Positions 1,654-18,794 of a DNA stretch of 64,000 nucleotides are shown here, in pieces. The notes beneath the pieces are model-generated. The model ran no database searches and was not told the origin of the DNA. It saw nothing but the letters and a program-made list of their open reading frames with translations. The DNA comes from an uncultured Gemmatimonadota bacterium (lineage in GTDB: Bacteria > JAAXHH01). Position numbers and translations under genes: made by a program. The stretch covers positions 3,616,001-3,680,000 of the forward strand of contig OX638340.1 of NCBI GenBank assembly GCA_951812955.1. The letters are read 5' to 3'. Position 1 is the first letter of the stretch, and every line of letters starts with the position of its first letter.

Positions 1654-1968
1654 GGCTTGATTGTCTTAAGGAGGTAACGCTGTCGTTCAGATATACGTAA
1701 CTTCCCGAAAAGAACGTTACGGTGTCGACGAAACACCGTGGAATAGCACACGATTGAAGGATTTGATGTATCCTATAAACTGAGTTGACCCCGTTTAGTA
1801 CGTATGAATTTTTGTACAACGAGGAGTGTTCGACACAACTCCAAGAAATGTGAATCTGTCTACAAACTGGTAATCTTGGTTTTATGTGCACCGGGTAAAG
1901 TCAGTCCGCGTGGGTATGACAGCGTTTATCGGAAAGCTCGGTCGTATGAGGATCAAGGAGTTGGCGTG

Positions 1969-2768
1969 ATGGCGAGAGTCCGAAAGTCAACTGCAATTGA
2001 ACGATTGCAGAGGTTGGTTGATGAGGCTTCAGAGCTGGATATGGAGGATGATAGCTCTCAGGAAGTTCAAAAATGGATACAGGACGTTTATACCGCTTTT
2101 ATCAACATATTCGGTGAGGATAGTTCTCAGTTTTCACGACTTCCGCAAAGTCACAAAACAACCCCAAGTGGGGTTCGTGAATACCTGAGATCAATGGTTT
2201 CCTGCGTCGCGTCTAGTCTCGATGAGATCAAGTACTTTCGGGAGGATGAAACAGAAACTGTGAAACAACCCTCAGAACAGGGTGACTTAAAAGCACCAGA
2301 TAAGGATTGTTACGACCAGGGATCGGCGACAAAAAAGTCTTTGTCGTTCATGGTCACGACGAGGCCGTCCTGCAGGCGGTTGCGAGATTTCTAGAAAAGC
2401 TGAAACTCGAACCAGTAATCCTGCACGAACAGGCGAATCAAGGCCGCACGATCATAGAGAAATTTGAGGATCATTCGGATGCGAGTTTTGCCGTGGTTCT
2501 GCTGACACCTGACGACATAGGCGCGGCCGTTACGGATAAGGCCGATCTACGGCACCGAGCTCGTCAGAACGTAATTCTCGAACTCGGATTCTTCATTGGG
2601 AAGTTGGGTCGCAACAGGGTCTGTGCTCTGAAATCGCGTTGTGTCGAAAATCCGTCGGACGTCGATGGGATGGTCTATATCAACCTCGACGAGCCAGATG
2701 CATGGAAGACCGGACTCGTGCGGGAGTTAATGGCAGCTGGTTTCGCCATCGACGCTAACTGGGTTTAG
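1969..2768 (+). pseudogene. TIR-like (COG4271 / CAP12-Pycsar-effector-type) nucleotide-binding protein split into two overlapping frames (1969-2394 and 2307-2768); either frameshifted or -1 recoded
   Basis: ORF1 starts at ATG 1969 with AGGAG 8 nt upstream and encodes a helical N-domain. ORF2 in the -1 frame reads KKVFVVHGHDEAVLQAVARFLEKL...FAVVLLTPDD...RARQNVILELGFFIGKLGRNRVCAL, which is the TIR-like domain pattern. The frames overlap by 88 nt and can be joined at A AAA AAG (2331-2337) to give a protein of about 266 aa. Confidence 0.6.
2331..2337 (+). promoter_or_regulatory. Candidate -1 ribosomal frameshift heptamer A AAA AAG, or an A6 homopolymer indel site
   Basis: In the ORF1 frame the codons are acA AAA AAG. 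An SD-like AGGGA sits at 2318-2322. An imperfect hairpin TTGTCGT-N8-ACGACGA sits at 2341-2362. This layout resembles the E. coli dnaX signal. Confidence 0.3.
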
Positions 2769-3985: not shown

Positions 3986-5122
3986 ATGGCCACTAACACC
4001 GAAAGATACGCTCCTGGTCGAGTACGAGATGCGATAATCCGGGTGATGAGACTAACGACAGAAGGTTTGTCTGCTAAACAGATCGCAGCGAGAGTTGCAA
4101 AGATAGAGGGCCACATGCCTGAGTCCTCGATCAGGTCTTATCTTCGTCTGAACACTCCAGAGACATTTGTTCGTGAAAGGAGGGGGGTATACCGCCTTAA
4201 GGTAGATCATGACAGCAGTCTGCAACGAACGATGTTCAGGAGTCCACCTTGGCAGGAACCCTTCAAGTTTGGATCGGCTACATTGTTTCATAGTGAATGT
4301 TTGGATTGGCTGGACGCAAGAGATGACCAATCAATCCACGCGATAGTTACCGATCCACCTTACGGTCTGCAGGAATACACAGCGAAAGAGCAGACGAAAC
4401 TCCGAAATAGGAAGGGGGGGATCTGGAGGATTCCTCCTGCATTTGATGGCCACGTTCGTTCGCCGTTACCAAGATTCACTACTTTAACCGATGAACAAAA
4501 ACTTTATCTTCGGGAGTTTTTCTATATCTGGTCTCGTCTACTGATCCCCAAGTTGGTACCTGGCGCCAACGTGGTCGTTGCCTCCAATCCACTACTCTCC
4601 CACATTGTCGCCGGCGCTATAGCGGATTCGGGGCTTGAAAGACGCGGCGACATCGTCAGGCTTGTTATGACTATGCGTGGCGGTGATCGGCCAAAAGCGG
4701 CACATGATGAATTCAAGGACGTCAGTGTGCTCCCCAGATCAATGTGGGAGCCATGGCTGATATTCCGTAGGCCTGTGGAGGGAAGAGTACAGGACAACCT
4801 CAGAAAATGGAAAACGGGAGGGTTTCGACGGCCGACTGGACTCAAGCCATTCGGAGATGTTATTCAATCTTCCCCGACCAGAAAAAATGAGAAGGCGATA
4901 GCACCTCACCCCAGCCTTAAGCCACAATCCTTCTTACGACGCCTCGTGAGGGGTGTTCTTCCACTAGGTGAGGGTATAGTTGTCGATCCCTTTGCCGGCG
5001 CTGGCTCTACTCTCGCGGCCGCTGAAGCAGTTGGGTACGAGTCAATCGGAATAGAAAAGGATTCTCTGTACTTCAATATGGCCAAGGAAGCACTACAGCC
5101 ACTAGCCGAGCTCGAAGTGTAG
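3986..5122 (+). CDS. Beta-class DNA methyltransferase (N6-adenine or N4-cytosine) with an N-terminal winged-helix-like domain
   Basis: Motif IV is IVTDPPYG. Motif I, VVDPFAGAGSTLAAAE, lies near the C-terminus (order IV...I means beta class). The N-terminal ~80 aa, GLSAKQIAARVAKIEG...SIRSYL, look like an HTH. Confidence 0.85.
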   Translation: MATNTERYAPGRVRDAIIRVMRLTTEGLSAKQIAARVAKIEGHMPESSIRSYLRLNTPETFVRERRGVYRLKVDHDSSLQRTMFRSPPWQEPFKFGSATLFHSECLDWLDARDDQSIHAIVTDPPYGLQEYTAKEQTKLRNRKGGIWRIPPAFDGHVRSPLPRFTTLTDEQKLYLREFFYIWSRLLIPKLVPGANVVVASNPLLSHIVAGAIADSGLERRGDIVRLVMTMRGGDRPKAAHDEFKDVSVLPRSMWEPWLIFRRPVEGRVQDNLRKWKTGGFRRPTGLKPFGDVIQSSPTRKNEKAIAPHPSLKPQSFLRRLVRGVLPLGEGIVVDPFAGAGSTLAAAEAVGYESIGIEKDSLYFNMAKEALQPLAELEV

Positions 5123-5141
5123 GGACTGAAGGAATCCTCAA

Positions 5142-5672
5142 TTACCTGTCTAGGTAAATCCAGTTCTCGCGAAGTTTACTCACGCCAAAGCGGTCAAGTG
5201 TGGCAGTTCGTGTGCCGAGTTCCCCTCTCGGATTGCGTCTAAAGTCTTCGATGGTTACCCTAGATAGGTAGACTTCCCTAAACGTCATTGGAAGTCTTGA
5301 TGAAGAGGGTTCGGTTTTGTTATCGACCTCGTATACAAATACACACATCCACTGGTCGCGCGCGCCATGTGTATCGACCGCACCGCCTTTTTTCTTCGTG
5401 GTTTTGATTTCAAGACCCTGATCTCCCGACTTAACGGAGTTTTCTGCGTAAACTCCCTGAACGAGAAGGTCAGGATGGCCATTGAAGTAGTTGTTTTCAG
5501 TAAGCACCCTTGAATGTTTAGCCAGACTGGCCGTCAGCATGTCCGATAGCACACCAGACATGATAGCGGGTCTCAACATATCGTCAAGCCGTTCCAGTCC
5601 GCGGTCTACCAGATGAGAATTGACATCGTGGAAGAAATCATAAACGTCCTGCATTGCCGACTCGAAATCCAT
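5142..5672 (-). CDS. Putative type II restriction endonuclease (PD-(D/E)xK-like)
   Basis: It is convergent with the MTase and 19 nt apart. The candidate catalytic core is GHPDLLVQ...GLEIKTTKKK. Family not recognised. Confidence 0.45.
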   Translation of the reverse strand: MDFESAMQDVYDFFHDVNSHLVDRGLERLDDMLRPAIMSGVLSDMLTASLAKHSRVLTENNYFNGHPDLLVQGVYAENSVKSGDQGLEIKTTKKKGGAVDTHGARDQWMCVFVYEVDNKTEPSSSRLPMTFREVYLSRVTIEDFRRNPRGELGTRTATLDRFGVSKLRENWIYLDR

Positions 5673-5864
5673 AATGCGGAGCTGATATGGTAAAGTCGAG
5701 TCAGGATTGAATGATTCTCTTACTACGACATTTCTGGATTGTTTGATCCGTTCGTCTCCTTCATGTTATCTGAATGCATGTTTCAACAAAATGTGATTTA
5801 CTGTGAATTTGTAAACCACTACCTACAATATCATGACCTAGAATCTCATGAAAGTAAAATCAAT

Positions 5865-7019
5865 CTATTCCTCCACGGCCCGCAGATCCAGCGCCAGGTC
5901 GCGGAAGCTCCGCACGCGGTGTAGGGTGACCAGGTTGGTGTCGTGCTGGTTCTTGCCGCCGCGCGCGGTGCGGGCGACGACGAGTAGATCGTCTCCGGAG
6001 ATGACCTGCGAGGCGTAGCTGAAGGACTCCATAATGCTCCTGCTCATGGCCACGCATCCGGCCTGGAACCAGTTGAGGGCGTCCATGCTGTACATAAGCA
6101 TTAGGATACGCCGCTCGTTTCCCGGCGGTCCGCTGAAACCGATTCGCCGAAGGGGTTCCCGGTCCTGCCACGGGTTCGTGGACAGGGTCACCGTGGTCCA
6201 GTAGAGACCGCCTTTATCGTCGTGGACGATCTGAAACTTGCACTGGGCGCCCGGCATGGGGTGGAACTGGAGGAAACGGTAGTCGAGGTTCCGACCGTCG
6301 TCCTCGACCCGTCCGATTGATGCCAGGCTCGACGTCGTGTGGCCATCGACGATCGTGCGCATGACCATCCGGATCTCGCCGTCCACCAGCACGATGTTGC
6401 CCTCCAGGAAGCTGTCGGCCGGCACCTTGTCCTTCAGGCTTTCGGGATATTTCCGCTGCGAGAGCACATCGGGGATACCAGGAAACCGGACGTGATTGGA
6501 CATGCGCCAGGCCGCCGGATCCAGGAGGTCTCGCGCCAGGTCGCCGGCCACCACCAGCGACTTCCAGTCGAAACGGCTGGGCGCGTCGCAGGTCTCGAAG
6601 GCGCGGTAGGCATGCCCGTTGTGGATCAATACCGGCGTCGGTGCGCAGTGGTGCTTCCCTTCGAAGAGCGTGACCGGCCCTTCCCAGGTGAAGCCGCCGT
6701 CCCGGGAGCGGCCGATGACGATGTCCCGGCTTTTGCGCTTGTTTCCGATGAGATAGGCGTCGTCCCCGTAGGCCCAGACGGTCGCCCAGATGAAATCCTG
6801 GCACGACGCGAGGGTCCACGTTGCGCCGTCGTCGTCACTGACCAGTACCTCGGTCTGATCCGGCACGGATTCCTTGAGCGGACTGGGACGGAACCATTCG
6901 TAACTGGCCAGCAGGCGTCCCGAGCGCATCCGCGCGATCGACGGTGAACCGGCGTATACGTTCTCCGGGTCGGGTGACGAGGCCAGTACCTGGTAGTCTT
7001 TGGCGAGCATTCGATTCAT
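5865..7019 (-). CDS. BNR-repeat / sialidase-like beta-propeller protein, no signal peptide
   Basis: It has Asp-box motifs SDDDGATW and SRDGGFTW. The N-terminus is not hydrophobic. Confidence 0.6.
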   Translation of the reverse strand: MNRMLAKDYQVLASSPDPENVYAGSPSIARMRSGRLLASYEWFRPSPLKESVPDQTEVLVSDDDGATWTLASCQDFIWATVWAYGDDAYLIGNKRKSRDIVIGRSRDGGFTWEGPVTLFEGKHHCAPTPVLIHNGHAYRAFETCDAPSRFDWKSLVVAGDLARDLLDPAAWRMSNHVRFPGIPDVLSQRKYPESLKDKVPADSFLEGNIVLVDGEIRMVMRTIVDGHTTSSLASIGRVEDDGRNLDYRFLQFHPMPGAQCKFQIVHDDKGGLYWTTVTLSTNPWQDREPLRRIGFSGPPGNERRILMLMYSMDALNWFQAGCVAMSRSIMESFSYASQVISGDDLLVVARTARGGKNQHDTNLVTLHRVRSFRDLALDLRAVEE

Positions 7020-9747: not shown

Positions 9748-10734
9748 ATGCACGTCGGTACCCAGCAGTTTAGCACGGCGGACGAAGACCTGGAGTATCT
9801 CGCCCGCCACGGCGTCTTCAACAAGAACGAGAATAACATTACCTTCCACAGGGAATATGGATGGGACGTGGAGGAACTGGCGGCCAAGAAGGAGAAGTGC
9901 GCCCGGTTCGGCATCAACATGGAGATGGTGGCCCTGCCTATCGCCCAGTTCAACGTCGACGGCGGCCAGGTGCCCAATTACATGCTGGGGAAATACGAGG
10001 AAGGCGACAAGGAAATCGAACTGGTGTGCAACATGGTGCGCCAGGCCTCGGAAGCGGGCATCCCCGCGATCAAATACTACCTTTGCGAGATGGAGAACCA
10101 GCGCACCGAGAGCGATCCGCCCGGACGCGGAGGTTCGATCTACAGCACCTGGGACCTGGAGAAGGCGAAGGACCGGCCGCCGCGGTACGACGAACCCGTA
10201 ACGGCCGAGATGAATTGGGCCCGCATAACCTACTTCCTTGAACGGGTGATCCCCGTGGCGACCGAGTGCAAAGTCCGCATGGCCTGCCATCCCTGCGATC
10301 CGTGGCTGCCGCCCGGCTATCGCTGCGTGGACCGCGTGCTCGGCGGCTTCGACGGGTTCAAGCAATTCATTGAGATCTGTCCCAGTCCGTACCACGGCAT
10401 GAATCTATGCCTGGGTTGCATGGCTGAGAGTTCGCTCGACCCGCGCAACGAGGTGCCTGACATTATTCGATACCTGGGATCGCGGAACAAGATCTTCCTC
10501 TGCCATTTCCGAAACATCGTGGGCGGGAGGAACAAGTTCCAGGAAGTCTGGCCCGACGAGGGCGTCATGAACATGCACCGCAACATGCAAGCGCTCAAAG
10601 AAGTCGGCTACGATCACATGTGCGTGCCCGATCACGCGCCTGGGCACAAGGATCCGGACAGCTACCGGCAGGCCTTCGCCTACGAGTTCGGCTATATTCA
10701 GGCGATGATCCAGGCGGTGATGGACGAGGGGTAG
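9748..10734 (+). CDS. Mannonate-dehydratase (UxuA)-like / xylose-isomerase-like TIM-barrel protein
   Basis: GGAGG lies 6 nt upstream. The blocks IFLCHFRNIVG...FQEVWPDEGVMNM...LKEVGYDHMCVPDHAP resemble the UxuA C-terminal region. Confidence 0.55.
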   Translation: MHVGTQQFSTADEDLEYLARHGVFNKNENNITFHREYGWDVEELAAKKEKCARFGINMEMVALPIAQFNVDGGQVPNYMLGKYEEGDKEIELVCNMVRQASEAGIPAIKYYLCEMENQRTESDPPGRGGSIYSTWDLEKAKDRPPRYDEPVTAEMNWARITYFLERVIPVATECKVRMACHPCDPWLPPGYRCVDRVLGGFDGFKQFIEICPSPYHGMNLCLGCMAESSLDPRNEVPDIIRYLGSRNKIFLCHFRNIVGGRNKFQEVWPDEGVMNMHRNMQALKEVGYDHMCVPDHAPGHKDPDSYRQAFAYEFGYIQAMIQAVMDEG

Positions 10735-10813: not shown

Positions 10814-12592
10814 TCAAATCTGCCACTCGATCAGTTGCTGGTCCTGTTTAAGGCGTGCACGCTGATGCTGGGCGGCAATGAAGATGTCTTCCAACCCGGG
10901 CGTATCGACTTCGAGCCCCGGCAGGGAGTACCGCGCTTCCATGAGAAACCGGTCCTCCTGCGGCGATTGGATCCATGCGTGCCGCCACCACTCCAACATG
11001 CGGCCTCTCGCGTCAGCCATGGCGATGGAGGAGGGCAGCCGGTCGCTCTTTCTGAGGTTGATGTTGCCGCGGGCCGGCAGCAGGTTCCAGAGATCGTTGT
11101 TGCGCCAGCGCGCCCACGGAAAACAGTGGTCGATGTGCGGAGCGGTTCGAATGCGCGACGCAGACCATACGCAGGTAAGCGCGAATCCGTCATCGCGCAA
11201 CTGCTTCGCCCGTTCCAGGGCAACGCTGGTGTCGTAGCGGCTCTCGGTCCATTCGAACGGGTCGTTTGATACCGTTTCAGCCCCGCGATCCCGAACCACA
11301 GCGGCAGATTGATCGGTGGGGGTCGTCCACCGCGCGGTGTTGCGCAGGCTTGCCGAGTCATCCCAATTTGTAGTCAGTTGCCGCCATTCCCTTACGATGA
11401 CCGGCTCCAGCCAGCAGGCGAACTGACCGAGTGACTGCCATAGCAATGCGGGAATCCTGAGGCGACCGAACTGCGTCAGATATTCGCGGGAGAGAACGAT
11501 GGGCCGGGCGGTCGCCTGCGCCCTGGTATATCCTGATTCGAACAACTGCCGGTTGCCGGAAGCTGGATAGGTGATGTAGCGTACAGGCATCCGCTCGATG
11601 TTTACGCAGGCGTCGTTTATAGCATGGGTAAGGATGACGGCCCGGTCCGAATCAAACCTGGCACCCAGCCGAAGGTCGGAAGGCGAGACGTTCCCGAGAC
11701 GGTAGAACGCATCCTTTGCCCAGCCGTATCCGCCCGGTCCCGATGGGCGTTGCGGCAGACGATGATGCAGGACCAGGGGAAGGTATTGCTTCAACCAGTA
11801 CAGACCGACAGCGCCGAAGGGGATTTCTACGTAGTCGTCCGTACGATTGATGACTAACCCCGGCGCCGTTTCAGCGAGTCGTACCAGGATCCGAAGCAGC
11901 CCCAGCTTGTAGGTCGAGGACTTGTTGTCATTCACGATCACGTGGCGCAGCAGCGGCAGGCTGCCGGTGCCATCGTCCGGCATAGAGAAAACCAGCGTTT
12001 CCCAATGTATGCCGGGTCGCGTCAGGTCCGGCTGCGTCGAGTGGTTGCGCAGCGCGATGGCTCGGCGGTTGGCAAAACCGATAAGTTCCTCTGCCGAAGT
12101 GTCATGAAATCCCCGGGCGACATTTTCCGCGGCATCTCCGCCGCGTCGCAGCGTGAATACCAGCAGTCCGGATGGATTGAGCAGCTCGGAAAGGATGCGG
12201 AAGGCCCGTTCCCGGACATTCTGCGCCACGTGCATCCACACAGCGCTCAGTAGAATCAGGTCGAACCGCCGACCGAGCGCACGCAGAACCCTTAGATCCG
12301 GTAGGGCATCATCCATCCAAACCACGCCTGGGTGGGAGCGTTCCGCAGCGAGGTTCCGCAACGCGCTCGGTTCCACTGCCACGACTTCCCATCCTCTGGC
12401 CGCGAGCCAGTTGGCATCGCGTCCCGAACCGGCGCCGATGTCGCAGGCGAATCCAGGTTCTTCACGCAGGTGGGTCGGAGCCCAGTCTTCATGGACGTCT
12501 GCAGCATCGACTCCGTCATACTGGGCGAAGAGAGCATCTGAATTGAGGTCGTAGTATCTGGTGCTGTTCATGCGGATAGGCAAGACTGGCAC
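10814..12592 (-). CDS. Fusion protein: class I SAM-dependent methyltransferase (N-terminus), uncharacterised middle region, HNH (His-Me finger) nuclease (C-terminus)
   Basis: The SAM motif I is ACDIGAGSGRDANWLAARGWEVVAVE, followed by LILLSAVWMH. The middle contains NKSSTYKLGLLRILVRL. The HNH core is HIDHCFPWARWRNNDLWNLLPARGNINLRKSD. Confidence 0.7.
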   Translation of the reverse strand: MPVLPIRMNSTRYYDLNSDALFAQYDGVDAADVHEDWAPTHLREEPGFACDIGAGSGRDANWLAARGWEVVAVEPSALRNLAAERSHPGVVWMDDALPDLRVLRALGRRFDLILLSAVWMHVAQNVRERAFRILSELLNPSGLLVFTLRRGGDAAENVARGFHDTSAEELIGFANRRAIALRNHSTQPDLTRPGIHWETLVFSMPDDGTGSLPLLRHVIVNDNKSSTYKLGLLRILVRLAETAPGLVINRTDDYVEIPFGAVGLYWLKQYLPLVLHHRLPQRPSGPGGYGWAKDAFYRLGNVSPSDLRLGARFDSDRAVILTHAINDACVNIERMPVRYITYPASGNRQLFESGYTRAQATARPIVLSREYLTQFGRLRIPALLWQSLGQFACWLEPVIVREWRQLTTNWDDSASLRNTARWTTPTDQSAAVVRDRGAETVSNDPFEWTESRYDTSVALERAKQLRDDGFALTCVWSASRIRTAPHIDHCFPWARWRNNDLWNLLPARGNINLRKSDRLPSSIAMADARGRMLEWWRHAWIQSPQEDRFLMEARYSLPGLEVDTPGLEDIFIAAQHQRARLKQDQQLIEWQI

Positions 12593-12866
12593 GGGTAGCC
12601 AGAATAGGCGTGCTTAGACAGATAAGCGTTTTCCCGCTTCATGCGGGCGGGCATTGATTCTTGCGGGTATCCTGCGCACGTACATGATAAAGGCGGGAAA
12701 ACGGTTGAATATCCCATGTCGAAGTCATTATCTATGATCATGCCATATTAGTCGGAAAACGGTAGATGTCAAGCAATCCAATGCGTCTGCTAACCGCGAC
12801 TGTCGCTTGTGTTTGCCTGCAGCGATGGCCTGACGTGTTCTGTGTACGCGCCAATCCCGACAGGAG

Positions 12867-13670
12867 ATGACTGTGATCTCAAAACGCATACTGCCCGGCG
12901 AGCGTCTCGACGACGCCTGGATGGAAGAAATACTCACGGACTTTTACAGGGACGGTTTCGCCCTTATACCGGGTGTGTTGACCCGGGATGAAATCGATGC
13001 CCTCCGCGAGGTGACGGACCGCTGCTTCAACGATCCCGTGCTGGCCGGCACTGATTACCTGAGCGGGCAGGGGGACGGATTCGTGCTCCGCAATACATTG
13101 GAACTGGACGCCGTATTCGTGGACATGCTGATTCGGGAGCCGATCCTGAGTCTGGCTGAAGCCGTCGTGGGAGAGGACTGTAAGTTCTGCGGGCAGAACG
13201 TGATCCGGAACGCGCCGGGCCAGGCCATTTCGCTGTGGCACGTGGACGACCGGGTGGAGTTCCCGTTGCCGGAAGACGTGCACCGCCACGACCCCCGCAT
13301 CCGCATGCCGGTGCAGTGGTTCACCATCCAGATGGCCCTGACAGATATCGATTCGGTGGAGGATGGTCCTACGCAGTTCGTGCCGGGCAGCCAGTATTCC
13401 GGCAGAGATCCCAACAGCCAGGAAAATCCGGAGTTCGAAGGCAGAGGACCGGTCTCTGCGTTATGCAAGGCGGGCGACGTCTACCTGCAGAACAACCAGT
13501 GCTGGCACCGGGGAGCGCCCGTCACATCGGATCAGATGCGCTATGTCTTCCAGTCCCAGTACGCCGCCCGTTGGGCCCACAGGCGGTTCAACGAGTATAA
13601 CCACGTACCTGTGCCGCCCACGGTTCTAAGCCGGGCCTCGGACAGGCTGCGTGGGGTGCTGGGTGCGTGA
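12867..13670 (+). CDS. PhyH-family Fe(II)/2OG dioxygenase (paralog 1)
   Basis: It has WHVDD (HxD), ALTDIDSVEDGPTQFVPGS and a distal CWHRG. A GTG at 12873 has better SD spacing (GGAG + 6 nt). Confidence 0.8.
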   Translation: MTVISKRILPGERLDDAWMEEILTDFYRDGFALIPGVLTRDEIDALREVTDRCFNDPVLAGTDYLSGQGDGFVLRNTLELDAVFVDMLIREPILSLAEAVVGEDCKFCGQNVIRNAPGQAISLWHVDDRVEFPLPEDVHRHDPRIRMPVQWFTIQMALTDIDSVEDGPTQFVPGSQYSGRDPNSQENPEFEGRGPVSALCKAGDVYLQNNQCWHRGAPVTSDQMRYVFQSQYAARWAHRRFNEYNHVPVPPTVLSRASDRLRGVLGA

Positions 13671-13760
13671 CGACATGTGCTCAGGTCGGCTTGGCTATTT
13701 AACGGGGCATCCGGCCGATTGCGCAGGCCGGTACCTGGCATGGCCTGATGTACGTCTTGA

Positions 13761-14966
13761 TTAGTGCACGATAGTATCGAACCGCGCGGGCAGCGCCACC
13801 TCGAGCAGCTCGAGGTCGTCGGAGCGGTCCGTGAGGGACGTTTTCGTGTGCGGCGGAATCACGTAGGCGTCTCCCGCCTCCAGCCGGTGTGCGCCCTGGT
13901 CATCCCCGTTCAGGGTCACCTCGCCTTCCATGACGAAGGTGAAGAGGATATCGCCAGTGTGGCTCGTGACCTGTTCCGCGCCTGACGGGCTTCCCTGTTC
14001 GCCTCCTCCGCCGGGGCCTGCGTATTCGCCGCTGATCGTGCCTCCTTGCGCGGAGCCATTCGAGCCGCTGTTCGCACGTGCGACCTGCACCGATGCTACG
14101 CCGCCCGTCGCCTCGCCGATCCCTGTTTCCCGGGCTTCGAATCCCGCTAGTCTCCAGGGTTTCCAGACCGCGTCTTTGAGCTGATGGCGGCAGAATGTCT
14201 GACCGCCGAAGACACGATCGGGGTTCAGCACTCCTGTCGGCAACTCGACCTCGTGGTCGATGGTGGTCACGTGGTCCGCGGGCACGCCGATTTCGATCAC
14301 CTGCAGGTTGTCGGAAGATTCGAGCACGCGATGCCGGATTTCCGGGGGTTGGATCACGCAGTCCCCCGCCTTGAGCATGAAAGGTGGCCCCTGGTCCTCG
14401 TAGACGAGCTTCACCTCGCCACGGTAACAGAAGATCAACTGGAATCCCACCGTATGATAGTGTACAACGTCGGGAACGGGACCGGCGTCGGGGATCCGGA
14501 TGTGGGAAGCAATGATGCTCCCACCCAGGCGGCCGGGCACCAGGTCGCGGTAGTGCATGCCGGCACGGCCGATTACCCAGGGCGTGTTGTCCTTCAGCCT
14601 CCGCACGAGGAAGGCGTGCTCCGTCGGCGGGATTTCCAGCGGCGGATCGGCCCGCACGATCTCGACCCGTGTGCCGTTCGGCGCGGTGAGTTCGGTCCGG
14701 CCGCCGGCCAGAACCGCCGGATCTCGACACAGGATTCGTATTGTGCCCGGCGGTTCGGACGCGCCCTGCTCCAGCCGGATGGTGAGCCCGTGGCCGGAAA
14801 GTACGGAAACTGACGGGTAGTCGGCGGGGTAGATCTTGTCCATACGGAAACCCAGGGTCTTCATGAAGAAGGCCAGGTCCGCGGACAAGTCCGAGGTCGG
14901 CAGCCGGATCTCGGCGCCCTGGATATTGTCCTCGCGGTTGGTCTGCTTGTCGTCATGCAATTGCAT
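13761..14966 (-). CDS. VOC/glyoxalase-like N-domain plus two cupin domains
   Basis: I chose the start at ATG 14966 (AAGGGAG 8 nt upstream, 13 nt after the upstream stop) rather than 15005. There are two cupin cores: DVVHYHTVGFQLIFCYRGE... and GDILFTFVMEGEVTL... Confidence 0.5.
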   Translation of the reverse strand: MQLHDDKQTNREDNIQGAEIRLPTSDLSADLAFFMKTLGFRMDKIYPADYPSVSVLSGHGLTIRLEQGASEPPGTIRILCRDPAVLAGGRTELTAPNGTRVEIVRADPPLEIPPTEHAFLVRRLKDNTPWVIGRAGMHYRDLVPGRLGGSIIASHIRIPDAGPVPDVVHYHTVGFQLIFCYRGEVKLVYEDQGPPFMLKAGDCVIQPPEIRHRVLESSDNLQVIEIGVPADHVTTIDHEVELPTGVLNPDRVFGGQTFCRHQLKDAVWKPWRLAGFEARETGIGEATGGVASVQVARANSGSNGSAQGGTISGEYAGPGGGGEQGSPSGAEQVTSHTGDILFTFVMEGEVTLNGDDQGAHRLEAGDAYVIPPHTKTSLTDRSDDLELLEVALPARFDTIVH

Positions 14967-14979
14967 ATCGCCAGCTCCC

Positions 14980-16101
14980 TTATCCTTCGAAACGATACTT
15001 CTCAACGACGTCCATGTTCAGCTCCGTACCCAGTCCGGGTTTCACGGGGAGCCGGAAATAGCCGCTTTCCACGACCGGCGGATCGGTCAGCAGGTCGTCG
15101 CGCCAGGGCGCGTCCCATTTTTCGTCCACGAACTCCAGCACCAGTGCGTTTGGGATATTGGCCATGACGTGAAGGCTCGCCGTCGTGGACACGGCGCTGT
15201 TCGGATTATGGGGCGAGACCTGCATGTAGTAGCTTTCCGCCATGGCGGCGATCTTCTTGGTCTCCATGATGCCGCCCGTGCGCACAACGTCGGGCATGAT
15301 CATGTCCACCGCCTGGGCGGCGATCAGGTCCCGGAAGCCGAAGCGCGTATACCGTCGTTCGCCCACGCAAACGGGCACGTTGACGGACGCGGTCACCCGG
15401 GCCAGGGCGTCGATGTTCTCCGGGTGGACCGGCTCCTCGTAGAACAGCAGGCCGATTTCCTCGAGCCGGTTGCCGATGCGGATCGCGGCGCTCGTGGTGT
15501 ACCGGCATCCCACGTCGGTACAGAGGTCCACCCCGTCGCCCACGGCCTCGCGGCACCGGCGCATGTGTTCCAGGGCCATCTTCTCTTCCTTCAGCGTGAC
15601 AGAGCGAGGCGAGTCAATGCGTTCCCCTTTGACCAGCGGATCCGAGGGGAAGTACGCCTTGATGGCGGTAACGCCCTTGGCGGCCAGTTCTGCGCACTCC
15701 TCCGGGTCGGAGGCATGGCTGTAGAACCGAATGCGGTTGCGGCACGGTCCGCCGATGAGATTGTAGATGGGCTGACCGGTGACCTTGCCCACGATGTCCC
15801 AGAGGGCGATCTCGATGCCGCTGATCGCCGCGATGACCGTACCAGTCTGCCCGATCTGCTCCAGGGCGTAGTACATACGGTGGTACAGGTACTCTATGTG
15901 GAACGGATCCTCGCCGATGATGAGCTTGCTCAGTTCGTCCACGGACTGTGCGATGATGGTGCCGCCCGGCCAGTTCGTCGCGTCCCCCAGGCCCACGACC
16001 CCCTCGTCCGTGTAGACCTGCACGAAGACCCACGGCGAGCCGATGTCCGTCGATTTGCGCCAGGACTCCACCAGGTGCACTTTCACATCGGTGATTTTCA
16101 T
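14980..16101 (-). CDS. Enolase-superfamily (mandelate racemase/muconate-lactonizing type) sugar-acid dehydratase-like enzyme
   Basis: MKITDVKVHLV...VFVQVYTDEGVVGLGDAT...AISGIEIALWDIVGKVTGQPIYNLIGG is the classic N-terminal capping-domain pattern. Confidence 0.85.
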   Translation of the reverse strand: MKITDVKVHLVESWRKSTDIGSPWVFVQVYTDEGVVGLGDATNWPGGTIIAQSVDELSKLIIGEDPFHIEYLYHRMYYALEQIGQTGTVIAAISGIEIALWDIVGKVTGQPIYNLIGGPCRNRIRFYSHASDPEECAELAAKGVTAIKAYFPSDPLVKGERIDSPRSVTLKEEKMALEHMRRCREAVGDGVDLCTDVGCRYTTSAAIRIGNRLEEIGLLFYEEPVHPENIDALARVTASVNVPVCVGERRYTRFGFRDLIAAQAVDMIMPDVVRTGGIMETKKIAAMAESYYMQVSPHNPNSAVSTTASLHVMANIPNALVLEFVDEKWDAPWRDDLLTDPPVVESGYFRLPVKPGLGTELNMDVVEKYRFEG

Positions 16102-16215
16102 GAGATGCCTTTGGACTCTTTCATACAGATTCCGGCCGATTTCGTCGCTGGGCGCGCCAGATCATCTCTCCTGACAGACCGCATCGTGCCCGAATTCGAT
16201 GTCAGCCTGCTGGCT

Positions 16216-17094
16216 TCAGTCCCGTCGCAGGTTGCTGAACTCCGGTTTCGGACCGCCCTCTTCACGGTCCCACTGCCACAGTTCCGTGTAGGGCGACTGG
16301 GCGTGGAAACCGAAGATGACCGGTCCGTCTTCGCCCGCCCGTTCGAGCACGTCCGGATTGACCACGCGGGGCATCTCGTACTCGCAACGGGTCCAACGCC
16401 TCCGCCAGGGGCTCAACACCGCATAGCGCGGCTGGTCGGTCTGGTTCTTCGTCGTACCATGCCAGGTATTCACGTCGAAGAGCACGAGCGATCCTTCCGG
16501 GGCGACGGCAGTCCGGGCGTTGCCATAGGCCGAATCGGGCACGTCGAGGTACTCGTACCGGTGGCTGCCCGGGACGAACTCCGTCGCGCCGTTGGTCTCG
16601 GTAAAGGGGCTCAGGCAGAAGATCGTGTTCAAGGCGATCGAGTGGCTCGTGATCCGCCGGCCCTCGTCGGCATCGGGCATGGATGCGTCCCGGTTGTGAC
16701 CGGTGATACCGCTGTCGGAATGCAGCCCGTGTCCGCCTTCACCGGGCATCACCACCGATCCGTACACGGCGCTCAAAAGCGCGTCGGGGCCCAGGAAGTG
16801 TCTCGTCAGCCTCAGATGGTCGGGAAGCTGGTAGAACCGTTCGAACACCCGCGCCTTGTTGAAGAGCCATTCGAAACTGCCCCGCTCGCGGTTGGGGTAA
16901 CGTGTTTCGAGTTCCCTTCGCGCTTCCGCGCATTCCTCTGCCGTCAACTGGTCCGTCAGGATGGTGTATCCCTCAACCTTCAGGTCCAGCACGTGGGCTT
17001 GAAAGGATTCGTCTGTCATAGGTTGATTCCGGCTCTCATGTGATGCTTGTTCGACCAGCGCAGGGTTTGGCGGATCAACGGCCGGTATGGCCAT
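16216..17094 (-). CDS. PhyH-family dioxygenase (paralog 2)
   Basis: It has GLHSDSG (HxD), CLSPFTETNGATEFVPGSH and a distal NTWHGTTKN. The start is uncertain (17094 or ATG 17019). Confidence 0.75.
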   Translation of the reverse strand: MAIPAVDPPNPALVEQASHESRNQPMTDESFQAHVLDLKVEGYTILTDQLTAEECAEARRELETRYPNRERGSFEWLFNKARVFERFYQLPDHLRLTRHFLGPDALLSAVYGSVVMPGEGGHGLHSDSGITGHNRDASMPDADEGRRITSHSIALNTIFCLSPFTETNGATEFVPGSHRYEYLDVPDSAYGNARTAVAPEGSLVLFDVNTWHGTTKNQTDQPRYAVLSPWRRRWTRCEYEMPRVVNPDVLERAGEDGPVIFGFHAQSPYTELWQWDREEGGPKPEFSNLRRD

Positions 17095-17120
17095 CGCCCG
17101 GTCCGCGGCGTCCGCTCGAA

Positions 17121-17936
17121 TCAGCGTCCGGCCAGGTCGTCTCCGAGGTCGGTTGCGTCCACTTTGCCTTTCTCCAGGCTCACGCCGACGACGAAGAGCT
17201 CGAGGTCATCGTCCGTATGGTTGTAGATTCCGTGAGCACTGCCCAGGTTATTCAGAATGGCGTCCCCGCGGACGACCTCCTCGGTCTCGCCGTCCACCGT
17301 GATCCGGCCCCGGCCGTTCATGATCATGTAGGCTTCGTCCACGATCTCGTGCCGGTGGTAGCCCACGGAAGTACCCGGCGGCAGTAGGATATGGCAGAGG
17401 TATTCGAAATTTGTCGTGAAATCCCGACTTCCCCATACCTCCCGGAAAAGCACTTCGCCCTTTCCACCGTGATGCCGCCGGGGCTTCAGTAAGGCGCGGT
17501 TGAACCGTCCCACGGGCAATCGATCAGCGGACTCCAGCTTGACCTCTATGCGCGGGTCGTCGAAATCCTCGCACATCGGGGTGCGGGTGGGGTCCACACA
17601 GTGGAAGTTGAAGAACCAGGTATCCTGGTCCGAGTGGTTGTAGATGCCGTGGGATTCACCCGAGCGGAGGGGCACCGCCGCGCCGCCGTCGACTTCGGTC
17701 GTGCGGCCGTTGTGGGTGAACTGCATGGCGTTGTCGATGGTGACGAAGATCTCTTCCGAGTGGATGTGCGTGTGTTGCCCGATGCCGCTGCCGGGCGGGA
17801 AGATGACAGAGTGGATGAACGACCAGGGAGACTTGAACGCCGTCGCATCGAACCCCGGGTTGAAATAGCTCGCCGCGGCGCCGCCGTGGCTGACGCCCAA
17901 TCTCATCTCTTCGCGCCTTGTATGGGTTATCCGCAT
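17121..17936 (-). CDS. Bicupin protein
   Basis: Two cupin metal motifs are present: GIGQHTHIHSEEIFVTIDN and SVGYHRHEIVDEAYMIMNGRG. Confidence 0.6.
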   Translation of the reverse strand: MRITHTRREEMRLGVSHGGAAASYFNPGFDATAFKSPWSFIHSVIFPPGSGIGQHTHIHSEEIFVTIDNAMQFTHNGRTTEVDGGAAVPLRSGESHGIYNHSDQDTWFFNFHCVDPTRTPMCEDFDDPRIEVKLESADRLPVGRFNRALLKPRRHHGGKGEVLFREVWGSRDFTTNFEYLCHILLPPGTSVGYHRHEIVDEAYMIMNGRGRITVDGETEEVVRGDAILNNLGSAHGIYNHTDDDLELFVVGVSLEKGKVDATDLGDDLAGR

Positions 17937-17993
17937 GCGGACCGCTCCGGACTCCCCGACGATGGCATCATCCGGGGTGTATCTGTACCAAAG

Positions 17994-18794
17994 CTAAAGG
18001 GCGACTTCCTCGACAGGCTGCGTGCCGGTCTCGTAGGCGGGCCGCCACCGGTCGTGGGCCATGGACTCCTCCTCGCTGAGCCCGCACAGCCAGTTCCAGG
18101 TGTGGATGCGGCGTCTCAGGTCCCGGTAGGATTCCACTCCACTCGTGTATGGCGCGGCCGGCCGGTCGCGGTACACGGGGATTTCTTCCGAATCGATGAG
18201 CCAGTCGCGCTGCGGCGGTGCATTGCGGAAGTAGGAGAATTTGATCATGCTGCGGGGCTTGTGATTGAGCTTCGGGCCCGCCCGGTGCCAGATGCCGTAC
18301 CGGGTGATGGCCACGGTGCCGGCCTTCACTACGAGCGAAAGCTGGCCCGTGAGATCGCCGTAGTGGGCGAGGGCGTCGCGGTTGACCGCCCGGCAGTGGG
18401 AACCGGGCAGGATCATGGTCGGCCCGTCTTCGATCCCCACGTCCTGCGGATAATAGTAGCACTGGAGTTCGTTGATCTCGTAACCCTGGCCGGAAATGCC
18501 GTCCGAATGCCAGTCCTGACCCGCGACGGGCTCGTTTATGAGGTGGTGATGGCCGCCCGTCGGCATCAGGAAGTTGGCACCGAGCAGCGAACGTATCACG
18601 CCTGCCAGCCGCGGATGGAGCAGGACTTCGCGGACGAAATCCGGTGAACCGACCAGTTCCTTCGCGCGGCCGACCTTGACGTTGCGGCACTGCGCGTTGA
18701 AACCGGGATCCACCATTTCTTCAAGCACCGCGTAACCCTTCGCCACGAAATCCATCACGTCGTCGTCGGTCATTGTCGGTCTGATCTCCGCCAT
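17994..18794 (-). CDS. PhyH-family dioxygenase (paralog 3)
   Basis: It has QDWHSDG (HxD), DVGIEDGPTMILPGSH and a distal GIWHRAG. Confidence 0.75.
   Translation of the reverse strand: MAEIRPTMTDDDVMDFVAKGYAVLEEMVDPGFNAQCRNVKVGRAKELVGSPDFVREVLLHPRLAGVIRSLLGANFLMPTGGHHHLINEPVAGQDWHSDGISGQGYEINELQCYYYPQDVGIEDGPTMILPGSHCRAVNRDALAHYGDLTGQLSLVVKAGTVAITRYGIWHRAGPKLNHKPRSMIKFSYFRNAPPQRDWLIDSEEIPVYRDRPAAPYTSGVESYRDLRRRIHTWNWLCGLSEEESMAHDRWRPAYETGTQPVEEVAL

What the first reader, a model, noticed from the sequence alone, without database searches (positions are those of the whole stretch)
10814..12592. Stand-alone 592-aa fusion of a small-molecule-type SAM methyltransferase with an HNH nuclease
Seen:
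- The N-terminal ~200 aa have class I SAM-MTase motifs (DIGAGSGRDANWLA...VVAVE...LILLSAVWMH) but no DNA-MTase (D/N/S)PP(Y/F) motif.
- A ~250-aa middle region contains NKSSTYKLGLLRILVRL, a possible winged-helix or DNA-recognition module.
- The C-terminus has a complete His-Me finger (HIDHCF...NDLWNLLP...NINLRKSD).
- The gene is monocistronic, convergent with the uxuA-like gene and divergent from a PhyH gene. Its G+C is host-like.

Inference: this may be a single-polypeptide modification-sensing or self-regulating nuclease, such as a type IV-like restriction or defence enzyme whose activity is gated by SAM binding or auto-methylation. I cannot place it in a described system.
Basis: partly seen in the sequence, partly recalled or inferred. 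Interest (0 to 1): 0.6.

Follow-up and report, generated by a model that had tools for sequence, protein, structure and literature searches.

The report
Uncharacterised methyltransferase–winged-helix–HNH nuclease gene
This gene encodes a member of a widespread but unstudied family of single-protein DNA-cutting enzymes that carry a small-molecule-type methyltransferase domain. It most likely acts as a mobile anti-invader (restriction-like) nuclease whose SAM-binding domain does something other than classical DNA protection.

Summary
Window 10814-12592(-) is a real 592-aa ORF, probably 585 aa starting at the ATG at 12571. It has three modules:
- an N-terminal class-I SAM methyltransferase of the small-molecule type;
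- a ~270-aa middle module with winged-helix folds;
- a Cas9-type (HNH_4) His-Me nuclease with every catalytic residue invariant.

The fusion is conserved in relatives from at least 488 species representatives across many phyla, and all are annotated generically. No partner gene is universal. In 30 of 86 loci, restriction-type genes lie within 7 kb: SauUSI-like type IV enzymes (often operonic), Dcm/Vsr, HNH_2 proteins and WYL regulators. Elsewhere, as in this window, the gene sits alone among housekeeping genes.

New findings:
- The MTase domain was recruited from a ~200-aa stand-alone family that also occurs on plasmids and in one phage.
- No member has a DNA-MTase (D/N/S)PP(Y/F/W) motif.
- At least four lineages have eroded SAM loops but an intact HNH, which argues against a classical self-protecting R-M enzyme.

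Verdict: a probable stand-alone restriction-like defence nuclease, a new variant of wH-HNH enzymes. Its mechanism is unproven.

The parts
10814..12592 (-). Whole ORF as listed (592 aa, GTG start, stop codon included). The probable true CDS is 10814-12571 (585 aa, ATG).
   Evidence: ORF; most homologs start at M8; sequence of the start region
11984..12565 (-). N-terminal class-I SAM-dependent methyltransferase domain of the small-molecule type (aa ~10-203).
   Evidence: Pfam Methyltransf_23/12/11/25. Nearest solved relatives are TehB-like proteins. The Foldseek top 50 are all small-molecule MTases. The whole domain is homologous to ~200-aa stand-alone MTases.
12416..12448 (-). SAM-binding motif I, ACDIGAGSGRD (aa 49-59).
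   Evidence: Invariant or nearly invariant. Eroded in a few lineages.
11183..11983 (-). Middle DNA-binding-type module with winged-helix folds (aa ~204-470). It includes the conserved PDDGTG...NDxKSSTYKLxLLR stretch.
11267..11356 (-). Lineage-specific, low-confidence (probably disordered) insert in the linker before the HNH (aa 413-442).
   Evidence: Present only in the closest relatives (alignment). pLDDT <50.
10817..11182 (-). C-terminal HNH (His-Me finger) nuclease domain of the Cas9/HNH_4 type plus a helical tail (aa ~471-592).
11033..11137 (-). Core HNH motif HIDHCFPWARWRNNDLWNLLPARGNINLRKSDRLP (aa 486-520). Catalytic residues are D488, H489, N503 and N512.
   Evidence: Invariant in 53 sequences. 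These align with SpCas9 D839, H840, N854 and N863.
12745..12772 (-). Promoter-like site TTGACA-16-TAATAT upstream of the gene, in the 274-bp divergent intergenic region (12593-12866).
   Evidence: It is a single consensus match, and the count is not above the shuffled expectation.

Best explanation
The gene encodes a member of a widespread, horizontally mobile, uncharacterised family of single-polypeptide nucleases.

**Shown**
- The protein joins three modules: (i) a SAM-binding class-I methyltransferase domain recruited intact from a ~200-aa stand-alone small-molecule-type MTase family; (ii) a ~270-aa module with winged-helix folds; (iii) a Cas9-type HNH nuclease with a complete active site.
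- It has no obligatory partner gene.
- Its distribution is patchy across many phyla, and it occurs on plasmids.

**Inferred**
- It is a stand-alone restriction-like (most likely type-IV-like or otherwise DNA-feature-dependent) anti-invader nuclease.
- The winged-helix module selects the DNA target and the HNH cuts it.
- The MTase domain is a SAM-dependent accessory module that senses a ligand, licenses cleavage, or methylates something other than a DNA base. It is not a classical protective DNA methylase.
For: - **Architecture and motif conservation:**
- **MTase is of the small-molecule type:** NCBIfam and PDB sequence hits are TehB, CpaM and daptide MTase. The Foldseek top 50 are all small-molecule MTases. 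0 of 278 members have [DNS]PP[YFW].
- **Shared pocket with the stand-alone family:** Y14, Y25, R58, the W92-x-x-D95-x-L97-P98 stretch (WxDDxLP), M120, R149 and W197 are conserved in both.
- **The MTase can decay while the nuclease persists:** at least four lineages (the P0375/P0379/P0380 clade, P0178, P0197, P0151) have lost the glycine-rich SAM loop but keep a perfect HNH motif. A nuclease that needed the methylase for self-protection would not tolerate this.
- **Breadth and mobility:** at least 488 species representatives hold a relative, from Gamma-, Alpha-, Beta- and Deltaproteobacteria, Acidobacteriota, Nitrospirota, Bacteroidota/Rhodothermota, Negativicutes and Melainabacteria. Nine plasmids carry a full-length copy.
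- **Neighbourhoods:** no universal partner exists. SauUSI-like type IV REases occur in 13 of 86 loci. In 5 of these they lie on the same strand, overlapping or within 10 bp of the gene. Dcm occurs in 9 loci, Vsr in 4, HNH_2 in 5 and WYL in 4, so 30 of 86 loci have at least one. Individual loci also hold McrBC, Mrr, TIR, Zorya-like genes, toxin-antitoxin pairs and transposases.
Against: - No experiment exists for any member.
- In an unbiased sample of nearest neighbours, 7 of 10 were ordinary non-defence genes. The window gene itself lies between metabolic genes, so the defence-island signal is partial.
- Some SauUSI-like and Dcm linkages come from related genera (Halieaceae, Marinobacter) and are not all independent.
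- The MTase motifs are strongly conserved in about 95% of members, so catalysis probably matters. Its substrate is unknown, and a non-canonical DNA methylation cannot be excluded.
- The lineages with eroded SAM loops could be decaying genes.
- PADLOC (2023) has no model for the family.
Confidence: 0.5

Rival explanations
1. Single-chain restriction-modification enzyme (type IIG/IIC-like). The MTase domain, guided by the winged-helix module as its target-recognition domain, puts a non-canonical methyl mark on host DNA. The HNH cuts unmarked DNA.
For: - MTase-nuclease fusions in one chain are the rule for type IIG enzymes (established knowledge).
- SAM motifs are conserved in about 95% of members.
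- There is no separate cognate MTase nearby.
Against: - 0 of 278 members have (D/N/S)PP(Y/F/W), and there is no C5-MTase signature.
- All sequence and fold neighbours are small-molecule MTases.
- The same domain exists as a 200-aa stand-alone protein without any DNA-binding part.
- Several lineages have lost the SAM loop yet keep an intact HNH, which would be lethal for an R-M enzyme.
Confidence: 0.12
2. Metabolic guard causing abortive infection. The MTase-like domain monitors SAM (or SAH, or a small methyl acceptor). When a phage SAM lyase or other counter-defence depletes SAM, the HNH is released and degrades DNA.
For: - SAM-binding residues are invariant in most members.
- The domain can decay to a non-catalytic scaffold.
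- The gene often sits next to SAM-dependent or modification-related defences.
- Phage SAM lyases that defeat R-M and BREX are established knowledge.
Against: - There is no direct evidence.
- Non-SAM pocket residues shared with the stand-alone enzymes suggest real catalysis on a substrate rather than mere SAM sensing.
- Lineages without a SAM loop could not sense SAM.
Confidence: 0.12
3. Phosphorothioate-linked enzyme. The middle module is a divergent sulfur-binding-domain-like reader of PT-DNA. The TehB/TPMT-like MTase acts on the PT sulfur or a PT-pathway intermediate. The HNH cuts PT-modified DNA, or DNA lacking PT.
For: - The fused gene is in an apparent operon with a true SBD-HNH (SprMcrA SBD, E 1e-9) plus a PAPS-reductase-like gene in L005 and L040. 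In L022 it lies 72 bp from sspD/sspC/sspA-like genes.
- Stand-alone homologs of the MTase domain lie divergently next to sspABCD-like operons on two sphingomonad plasmids.
- The nearest named MTase relatives (TehB, TPMT) methylate chalcogen or thiol nucleophiles.
Against: - hhalign of the middle module against an SBD profile is not significant (probability 0.2%). The tentative register puts Y-G, not the pocket Y-P, opposite the SBD sulfur-pocket motif.
- Only 3 of 86 loci have PT genes nearby, about what any defence-island gene might show.
- The two plasmids are related to each other.
- The other stand-alone MTase contexts examined have no PT genes.
- TehB and TPMT similarity is below the curated cut-offs.
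Confidence: 0.07
4. Non-defence role. The protein is a DNA-repair or housekeeping nuclease, or a selfish homing-type HNH element, that happens to carry a metabolic MTase domain.
For: - Many loci, including the window, have only housekeeping neighbours.
- G+C is host-like.
- Close relatives are syntenic, which suggests stable inheritance in this lineage.
Against: - The distribution is patchy across distant phyla with high sequence similarity.
- The gene is present on plasmids and beside transposases.
- It shows recurrent tight linkage to type IV restriction genes.
- It has no intron or intein context, no repeats, and no significant relatives of the wH-HNH part among viral structures.
Confidence: 0.12

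Closest known systems
wHTH(SBD)-[SRA]-HNH type IV restriction endonucleases (ScoMcrA, SprMcrA; also the wH-nuclease fusions of the DpnI/HhiV4I kind)
   Same: - Single polypeptide with an N-terminal winged-helix-type DNA reader followed by a C-terminal HNH nuclease.
- Stand-alone gene in mobile or defence contexts.
- True SBD-HNH genes are sometimes operonic neighbours.
   Different: - The HNH here is Cas9-type HNH_4, not HNH_2.
- There is no SRA domain.
- There is no significant profile similarity to the SBD, and the sulfur-pocket Y/L-P motif is not matched.
- An extra ~200-aa SAM MTase domain sits at the N-terminus, which none of these enzymes has.
Type IIG / IIC single-chain restriction-modification enzymes (e.g. 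the MmeI or BcgI kind)
   Same: A methyltransferase domain and a nuclease in one polypeptide, together with a DNA-recognition module.
   Different: - Those use gamma-class N6-adenine DNA MTases with an NPPY motif and PD-(D/E)XK nucleases.
- Here the MTase is of the small-molecule type without (D/N/S)PP(Y/F/W), and the nuclease is an HNH.
- The SAM loop can be lost without loss of the nuclease.
TehB / stand-alone ~200-aa class-I MTases (TehB, CpaM, daptide MTase and unnamed relatives such as phage phi458 Orf3)
   Same: - The N-terminal domain is homologous over its whole length to unnamed stand-alone MTases (33-43% identity).
- It shares SAM-binding-half similarity with TehB.
   Different: - Scores lie far below the curated TehB, CpaM and daptide cut-offs (27-30 bits against 175-218).
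- Those proteins have no DNA-binding or nuclease parts.
Cas9 / IscB HNH domain
   Different: There is no RuvC domain, no guide-RNA apparatus and no CRISPR context. Only the ~60-120-aa nuclease domain is shared.

Membership tests
Class I (Rossmann-fold) SAM-dependent methyltransferase | Glycine-rich motif I (D/E-x-G-x-G-x-G) after strand 1, and an acidic residue at the end of strand 2 | tested here: met
   D51-I-G-A-G-S-G57 and E74 are present in the window protein and invariant or nearly invariant in 53 homologs. 263 of 278 members pass a strict regex.
Class I (Rossmann-fold) SAM-dependent methyltransferase | Pfam family models matched above the gathering score, and the fold predicted | tested here: met
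   Methyltransf_23 scores 45.3 bits (cut-off 27), and Methyltransf_12, _11 and _25 also pass. The AF2 model has pLDDT >90 over aa 10-200. 889 Foldseek PDB hits have E <= 0.001 and the 50 listed are all MTases.
Class I (Rossmann-fold) SAM-dependent methyltransferase | Methyl-transfer activity and identity of the acceptor | not testable with these tools
   This needs 3H-SAM or LC-MS assays.
DNA amino-methyltransferases (N6A/N4C) and C5-cytosine methyltransferases | Catalytic (D/N/S)PP(Y/F/W) motif after strand 4, or the PC/ENV motifs of C5 MTases | tested here: not met
   0 of 278 full-length members have [DNS]PP[YFW]. There are no Pfam hits to N6_Mtase, N6_N4_Mtase, MethyltransfD12 or DNA_methylase. 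The Foldseek top 50 contain no nucleic-acid MTase.
HNH / His-Me finger nuclease, HNH_4 (Cas9-type) subfamily | Catalytic D-H dyad on strand 1, with Asn residues on the following strand and helix (beta-beta-alpha-metal core) | tested here: met
   D488-H489, N503 and N512 (plus K515 and D517) are invariant in 53 sequences. They align to SpCas9 D839-H840, N854 and N863. Strand-strand-helix is predicted at aa 486-515.
HNH / His-Me finger nuclease, HNH_4 (Cas9-type) subfamily | Family model matched above the curated cut-off | tested here: met
HNH / His-Me finger nuclease, HNH_4 (Cas9-type) subfamily | Metal-dependent DNA cleavage | not testable with these tools
   This needs a biochemical assay.
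Sulfur-binding domain (SBD, PF26340) of PT-dependent restriction enzymes | Fold similarity to solved SBDs | tested here: inconclusive
Sulfur-binding domain (SBD, PF26340) of PT-dependent restriction enzymes | Sequence or profile homology to the SBD family | tested here: not met
   hhalign of the middle-module profile against an SBD profile built from 16 sequences gives probability 0.2% and E 0.28.
Sulfur-binding domain (SBD, PF26340) of PT-dependent restriction enzymes | Sulfur pocket: a central Pro preceded by Tyr or Leu on helix A4 (Sco Y164-P165-x-x-A168; Hga L75-P76-x-x-H79), plus H/R-K on helix A2 (PMC10602919) | tested here: not met
   In the only (non-significant) register found, the SBD E-Y-P-F-W aligns to G-Y289-G290-W/F, with no proline. 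A structural superposition could not be made with these tools.
Type IV (modification-dependent) restriction enzyme | Cleaves only modified DNA and has no cognate protective methylase | not testable with these tools
   Only circumstantial evidence is available: tight linkage to SauUSI-like, SBD-HNH and McrBC genes in some loci, and tolerance of MTase-loop erosion.
Type IIG/IIC single-chain R-M enzyme | Gamma-class N6A DNA MTase with NPPY and a TRD fused to a nuclease, with methylation protecting self DNA | tested here: not met
   There is no NPPY-type motif. The MTase is of the small-molecule type. Lineages without a SAM loop keep the nuclease.
TehB tellurite-resistance methyltransferase | NCBIfam equivalog model matched above its cut-off | tested here: not met
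   NF008405 scores 27.4 bits against a cut-off of 218. Pfam TehB scores 19.8 against 20.4, and only the SAM-binding half aligns.
MADS (methylation-associated defence system), mad2 | Type-I-like N6-adenine MTase inside an 8-gene mad1-8 operon, with mad6-8 mandatory | tested here: not met
   Only a 110-aa Rossmann stretch matches the PADLOC mad2 model (37.8 bits). There is no mad operon in the window or in any locus. System definition is from bioRxiv 10.1101/2023.03.30.534895.
Defence-island gene (operational criterion) | Homologs are preferentially flanked by known defence genes | tested here: inconclusive
   30 of 86 loci have a recurrent restriction-type neighbour within 7 kb, and 6 of 6 Pfam-annotated distant loci have several defence genes. 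However, an unbiased sample of nearest neighbours gave 7 of 10 ordinary non-defence genes. No genome-wide background was computed.

The most novel reading that the evidence does not exclude
The family couples a reader of phosphorothioate (or another backbone or soft-nucleophile) DNA modification to a TehB/TPMT-like methyltransferase. That methyltransferase alkylates the modification itself, for example by S-methylating the PT sulfur to give a labile phosphotriester, and the HNH completes cleavage. This would be a previously unknown enzymatic methylation of the DNA backbone used in inter-genome conflict.

The reading is not excluded by the following:
- SBD-like fold hits;
- operonic SBD-HNH and PAPS-reductase neighbours in L005 and L040, and ssp-like genes beside the fused gene in L022;
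- ssp-like operons beside the stand-alone MTase on two plasmids.

It is not supported by profile comparison, and it rests on few loci.
Probability: 0.05. Interest if true: 0.9.

Novelty: new variant of a known kind. Interest (0 to 1): 0.55.

Why it matters
If it is a working defence nuclease, it would be a compact single-gene system present in hundreds of bacterial species across many phyla. Current defence-annotation resources miss it and genome pipelines label it merely "class I SAM-dependent methyltransferase".

Its unusual feature is a small-molecule-type SAM enzyme wired to a Cas9-type HNH through a DNA-binding module. This could reveal a new way of controlling a nuclease: by SAM or metabolite sensing, by licensing, or by an unconventional methylation. 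The fact that the SAM loop can decay while the nuclease persists offers a natural experiment on what the domain does.

A practical benefit would be better annotation. There may also be a new modification- or context-dependent nuclease reagent.

Tried and rejected
- **MADS membership.** The PADLOC mad2 hit is only Rossmann-fold similarity. mad2 is a type-I-like N6 MTase in an 8-gene operon. Rejected.
- **Split-gene or MTase-less subfamily.** Short representatives of ~370-420 aa carrying only wH + HNH looked like a separate architecture. For the one short form that was followed up (P0138), the nearest relatives are all full-length fusions on short contigs. They are most likely fragments or miscalled starts.
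- **HNH_2 neighbour cluster.** The HNH_2 neighbours are not all SBD proteins. Only those in L005 and L040 carry an SBD, while L014 and L017 have a different N-terminus.
- **A conserved partner gene.** Clustering of 1067 neighbour ORFs from 86 loci found none.
- **Libraries with nothing informative.** Pfam on the middle module, PHROGs, the viral structure library and NCBIfam on the stand-alone MTases and their small membrane-like partner.
- **Unavailable resource.** The AFDB50 fold library was not available.
- **Literature.** Searches for the fusion, for MTase-HNH terms and for S-methylation of phosphorothioate DNA found no description. Papers on Dnd, BREX and Domainator do not mention it.
- **Coverage limit.** Only the best 150 of 1180 hits of the exhaustive search were visible, so rare alternative architectures of the middle module may have been missed.
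Full report
**1. The observation**

In an alignment with 39 homologs most proteins begin at the window's Met-8. The real start is therefore probably the ATG at 12571, giving 585 aa.

The gene is convergent with a UxuA-like gene (9748-10734, +) and divergent from a PhyH-family gene (12867-13670, +). The 274-bp upstream spacer holds a single TTGACA-16-TAATAT match at 12772-12745. G+C is 0.59-0.63, like the surrounding genes.

High-GC DNA gives many spurious long ORFs. This one is real, because it matches Pfam families above their cut-offs and has thousands of homologs.

**2. Anatomy**

*N-terminal domain (aa ~10-203).*
- Pfam Methyltransf_23/12/11/25 match with E down to 1e-11.
- The nearest named relatives are all small-molecule or peptide methylases, and all lie far below family cut-offs. 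By sequence these are TehB, daptide MTase, CpaM and UbiG (NCBIfam), and TehB-like chains in the PDB.
- With the full AF2 model (pLDDT >90 over the domain), the 50 best Foldseek PDB hits are all small-molecule MTases: RdmB/DnrK, NodS, UbiG, phosphoethanolamine N-MTase, TehB, ChlM and bacillithiol MTase. None is a nucleic-acid MTase.
- None of 278 full-length family members has a (D/N/S)PP(Y/F/W) motif.

*C-terminal domain.*
- Pfam HNH_4 is matched: marginally in the window protein (23.4 bits against a cut-off of 22), and in 27 of 27 aligned members.
- A family profile aligns it to the Cas9 HNH. D488-H489, N503 and N512 fall on SpCas9 D839-H840, N854 and N863.
- These residues, plus K515 and D517, are invariant in 53 sequences down to 31% identity.

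*Middle module (~270 aa).*
- It matches no Pfam family.
- A dedicated AF2 model of aa 200-592 is confident (pLDDT 82.5, pTM 0.82).
- Residues 413-442 form a lineage-specific, low-confidence insert.

**3. The family**

The three-module architecture is conserved in all full-length hits, down to 56% identity among the 120 listed for the window protein and to about 31-40% in a second set.

An exhaustive search with the non-MTase part found 684 clusters (at 50% identity) with E <= 1e-10. The 150 listed are overwhelmingly ~560-590-aa fusions. Shorter entries carry wH + HNH only. For the one followed up (P0138), the nearest relatives are full-length fusions on short contigs, so the short entries are most likely fragments.

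A scan of one genome per species found relatives in at least 488 species representatives. They span Gamma-, Alpha-, Beta- and Deltaproteobacteria, Acidobacteriota, Nitrospirota, Bacteroidota/Rhodothermota, Negativicutes and Melainabacteria. Nine plasmids carry a full-length copy.

All source names are generic: "class I SAM-dependent methyltransferase" or "HNH endonuclease". PADLOC gives only a 110-aa Rossmann match to mad2. mad2 is a type-I-like N6 MTase of an 8-gene operon, so that hit is not relevant.

**4. Genomic context**

Close relatives are syntenic with the window. More distant homologs sit in very different places, many of them defence-like:
- a ScoMcrA-like SBD-HNH and toxin-antitoxin pairs (L005);
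- TIR, NOV_C and transposases (L006);
- Zorya-like EH_Signature/SNF2, a SauUSI-like enzyme and Mrr (L008);
- NERD and radical-SAM genes (L009);
- Mrr, DUF3427 and a large N6 MTase (L012);
- McrBC and VapBC (L101).

I clustered 1067 ORFs lying within 7 kb of the gene in 86 loci. No neighbour is universal, so the gene is a stand-alone unit. The recurrent neighbours are these:

| Neighbour | Loci (of 86) | Note |
|---|---|---|
| PLD-SF2 helicase-DUF3427 protein | 13 | Matches PADLOC "type IV methyl-directed restriction enzyme" at E 6e-199 |
| Dcm | 9 | |
| HNH_2 proteins | 5 | |
| Vsr | 4 | |
| WYL-WCX regulators | 4 | |

The PLD-helicase protein lies on the same strand, overlapping or within 10 bp of the gene, in L015, L016, L019, L024 and L025.

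Altogether 30 of 86 loci have at least one of these. Some come from related genera, so they are not all independent.

As a counterweight, I took an unbiased sample of the nearest large neighbour in ten diverse loci. Seven were ordinary non-defence genes, one had no Pfam match, one was a transposase and one a Schlafen-type helicase. The gene is therefore often a solitary insertion among housekeeping genes, as it is in this window. Here the nearest defence-type genes are a CAP12-type TIR ORF and an N6/N4 DNA MTase, 6-8 kb away.

**5. Origin and behaviour of the MTase domain**

tblastn against plasmids and phages showed that the N-terminal domain has full-length stand-alone homologs of ~200 aa, at 33-43% identity. 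They occur on many replicons and in Escherichia phage phi458.

Fused and stand-alone forms share SAM motifs and also family-specific positions: Y14, Y25, R58, the W92-x-x-D95-x-L97-P98 stretch (WxDDxLP), M120, R149 and W197. The domain was therefore recruited with its pocket intact.

In phi458 and in two sphingomonad plasmids, the stand-alone gene overlaps an upstream gene for a small hydrophobic protein. These small proteins are homologous to one another (E 1e-9).

At least four lineages of the fusion have lost the glycine-rich SAM loop while the HNH motif is perfectly intact (the P0375/P0379/P0380 clade, P0178, P0197 and P0151). A nuclease that depended on its own methylase for self-protection should not survive this. 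I take it as the strongest available argument against a classical R-M mechanism and for an accessory role of the domain. The alternative is that those genes are decaying.

**6. The phosphorothioate lead**

Three independent hints point to phosphorothioate (PT) DNA:
- The SBD fold hits.
- The fused gene lies in an apparent operon with a true SBD-HNH (SprMcrA SBD, E 1e-9) and a PAPS-reductase-like gene in L005 and L040. In L022 it lies 72 bp from sspD-, sspC- and sspA-like genes.
- The stand-alone MTase, with its small hydrophobic partner, sits divergently next to sspABCD-like operons on two plasmids.

Against this:
- hhalign between the middle-module profile and an SBD profile is not significant (probability 0.2%). 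The tentative register puts Y-G opposite the SBD pocket's Y-P. The pocket definition is from PMC10602919.
- Only 3 of 86 loci show PT genes.
- The two plasmids are related to each other.
- The other five stand-alone MTase contexts examined show no PT genes.

I therefore keep PT involvement as a low-probability rival (0.07), though an interesting one. Its most novel form, S-methylation of the PT sulfur, is my novel case (0.05). No paper on such chemistry was found.

**7. Mechanism: what is shown and what is inferred**

*Shown:*
- the three-module architecture;
- intact SAM-binding and HNH motifs in most members;
- the small-molecule-type MTase;
- no obligatory partner gene;
- a mobile, patchy distribution;
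- frequent but not universal linkage to restriction genes, especially type IV.

*Inferred (confidence 0.5):* the protein is a stand-alone restriction-like defence nuclease. The winged-helix module chooses the DNA, the HNH cuts it, and the MTase domain is a SAM-dependent accessory that senses, licenses, or carries out a non-canonical methylation. It is not a protective DNA methylase.

*Rivals:*
- single-chain R-M with a novel DNA methylase (0.12);
- a SAM or metabolite guard that triggers abortive infection (0.12);
- a PT-linked enzyme (0.07);
- a non-defence or selfish role (0.12).

**8. Comparison with known systems**

The protein works most like the wH(SBD)-HNH type IV enzymes: a reader plus an HNH in one chain. 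It fails the membership tests for the SBD, uses HNH_4 rather than HNH_2, and carries an extra MTase domain. It resembles type IIG enzymes only in joining an MTase and a nuclease, and it lacks their defining DNA-MTase motif. It is not TehB and not MADS. Only the nuclease domain is shared with Cas9.

I found no description of this fusion in Pfam, NCBIfam, PADLOC or PHROGs, or in the searchable literature. Subscription-only papers and defence catalogues released after 2023 could not be checked.

**9. Verdict**

The family is an uncharacterised, probably defence-related new variant of the wH-HNH nuclease theme.

Interest is 0.55. The function is plausible rather than astonishing. The family is large and unannotated, and its small-molecule-type MTase domain poses a clear, testable mechanistic question.

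Noticed in passing
window 2307-2768 (+), with overlapping ORF 1804-2394 (+): A 153-aa ORF matches the CAP12/Pycsar effector TIR domain (PF10137, E 4e-40). This is a likely defence effector, 8 kb from the gene under study. The upstream 196-aa ORF has no Pfam match.
   Followed up: partly
window 3986-5122 (+) and 5000-6000: A 378-aa N6/N4 DNA methyltransferase (PF01555) lies next to a stretch where G+C falls to 0.49, against ~0.62 elsewhere. This suggests a recently acquired patch. In close relatives the same side carries PIN/antitoxin and SLFN_AlbA_2 + HATPase_c_4 genes (L001-L004).
   Followed up: partly
window 12867-18794: A dense cluster of PhyH-family dioxygenase paralogs (12867-13670, 16216-17094, 17994-18794), cupins (13761-15005, 17121-17936) and an MR_MLE enolase-superfamily gene (14980-16101). 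It looks like a catabolic island, and the MTase-HNH gene sits at its edge.
   Followed up: no
L093 2336-3519 (Escherichia phage phi458 Orf2-Orf3); L094 5579-6609; L096 7528-8600: A two-gene module recurs: a small hydrophobic (membrane-like) protein plus a ~200-aa stand-alone homolog of the MTase domain, overlapping by a few bases. In a temperate coliphage it lies just after the integrase. On two sphingomonad plasmids it lies divergently next to sspABCD-like phosphorothioation operons. The small proteins are homologous (E 1e-9), and no curated family matches them.
   Followed up: partly
L005 8001-11352; L040 9797-13078: An apparent three-gene operon: MTase-wH-HNH, then SBD-HNH_2 (SprMcrA-like), then a PAPS-reductase-like protein of 250-287 aa. 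The first two genes overlap and the third overlaps or follows within ~60 bp, all on one strand. In L040 the first gene is truncated (468-aa ORF; the match to the query ends at about aa 519). A DndC/SspD-like protein beside a PT-dependent nuclease, without the rest of dnd/ssp, is unexplained.
   Followed up: partly
L022 11857-17508: sspD-like (280 aa) and sspC-like (1127 aa) genes on one strand, with a divergent cysteine-desulfurase gene and no detectable sspB (DUF4007). They start 72 bp from the end of the MTase-HNH gene. This may be a variant PT-modification module.
   Followed up: no
proteins P0375, P0379, P0380 (also P0178, P0197, P0151): Family members whose N-terminal domain keeps the Rossmann-like strands but has lost the GxGxG SAM loop (for example VLVINPPIDYLNGQ), while the wH and HNH parts are intact. 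They look like natural pseudo-methyltransferase variants.
   Followed up: partly
L008 9680-13252; L012 9925-11825; L009 6737-7537: Nucleases fused to a Top1-type zinc ribbon (Mrr_cat + NA-iREase1 + Zn_ribbon_Top1, or NERD + Zn_ribbon_Top1) recur beside the gene, together with DUF3427 proteins. In L008 a NUDIX gene overlaps the 3' end of the MTase-HNH gene.
   Followed up: no
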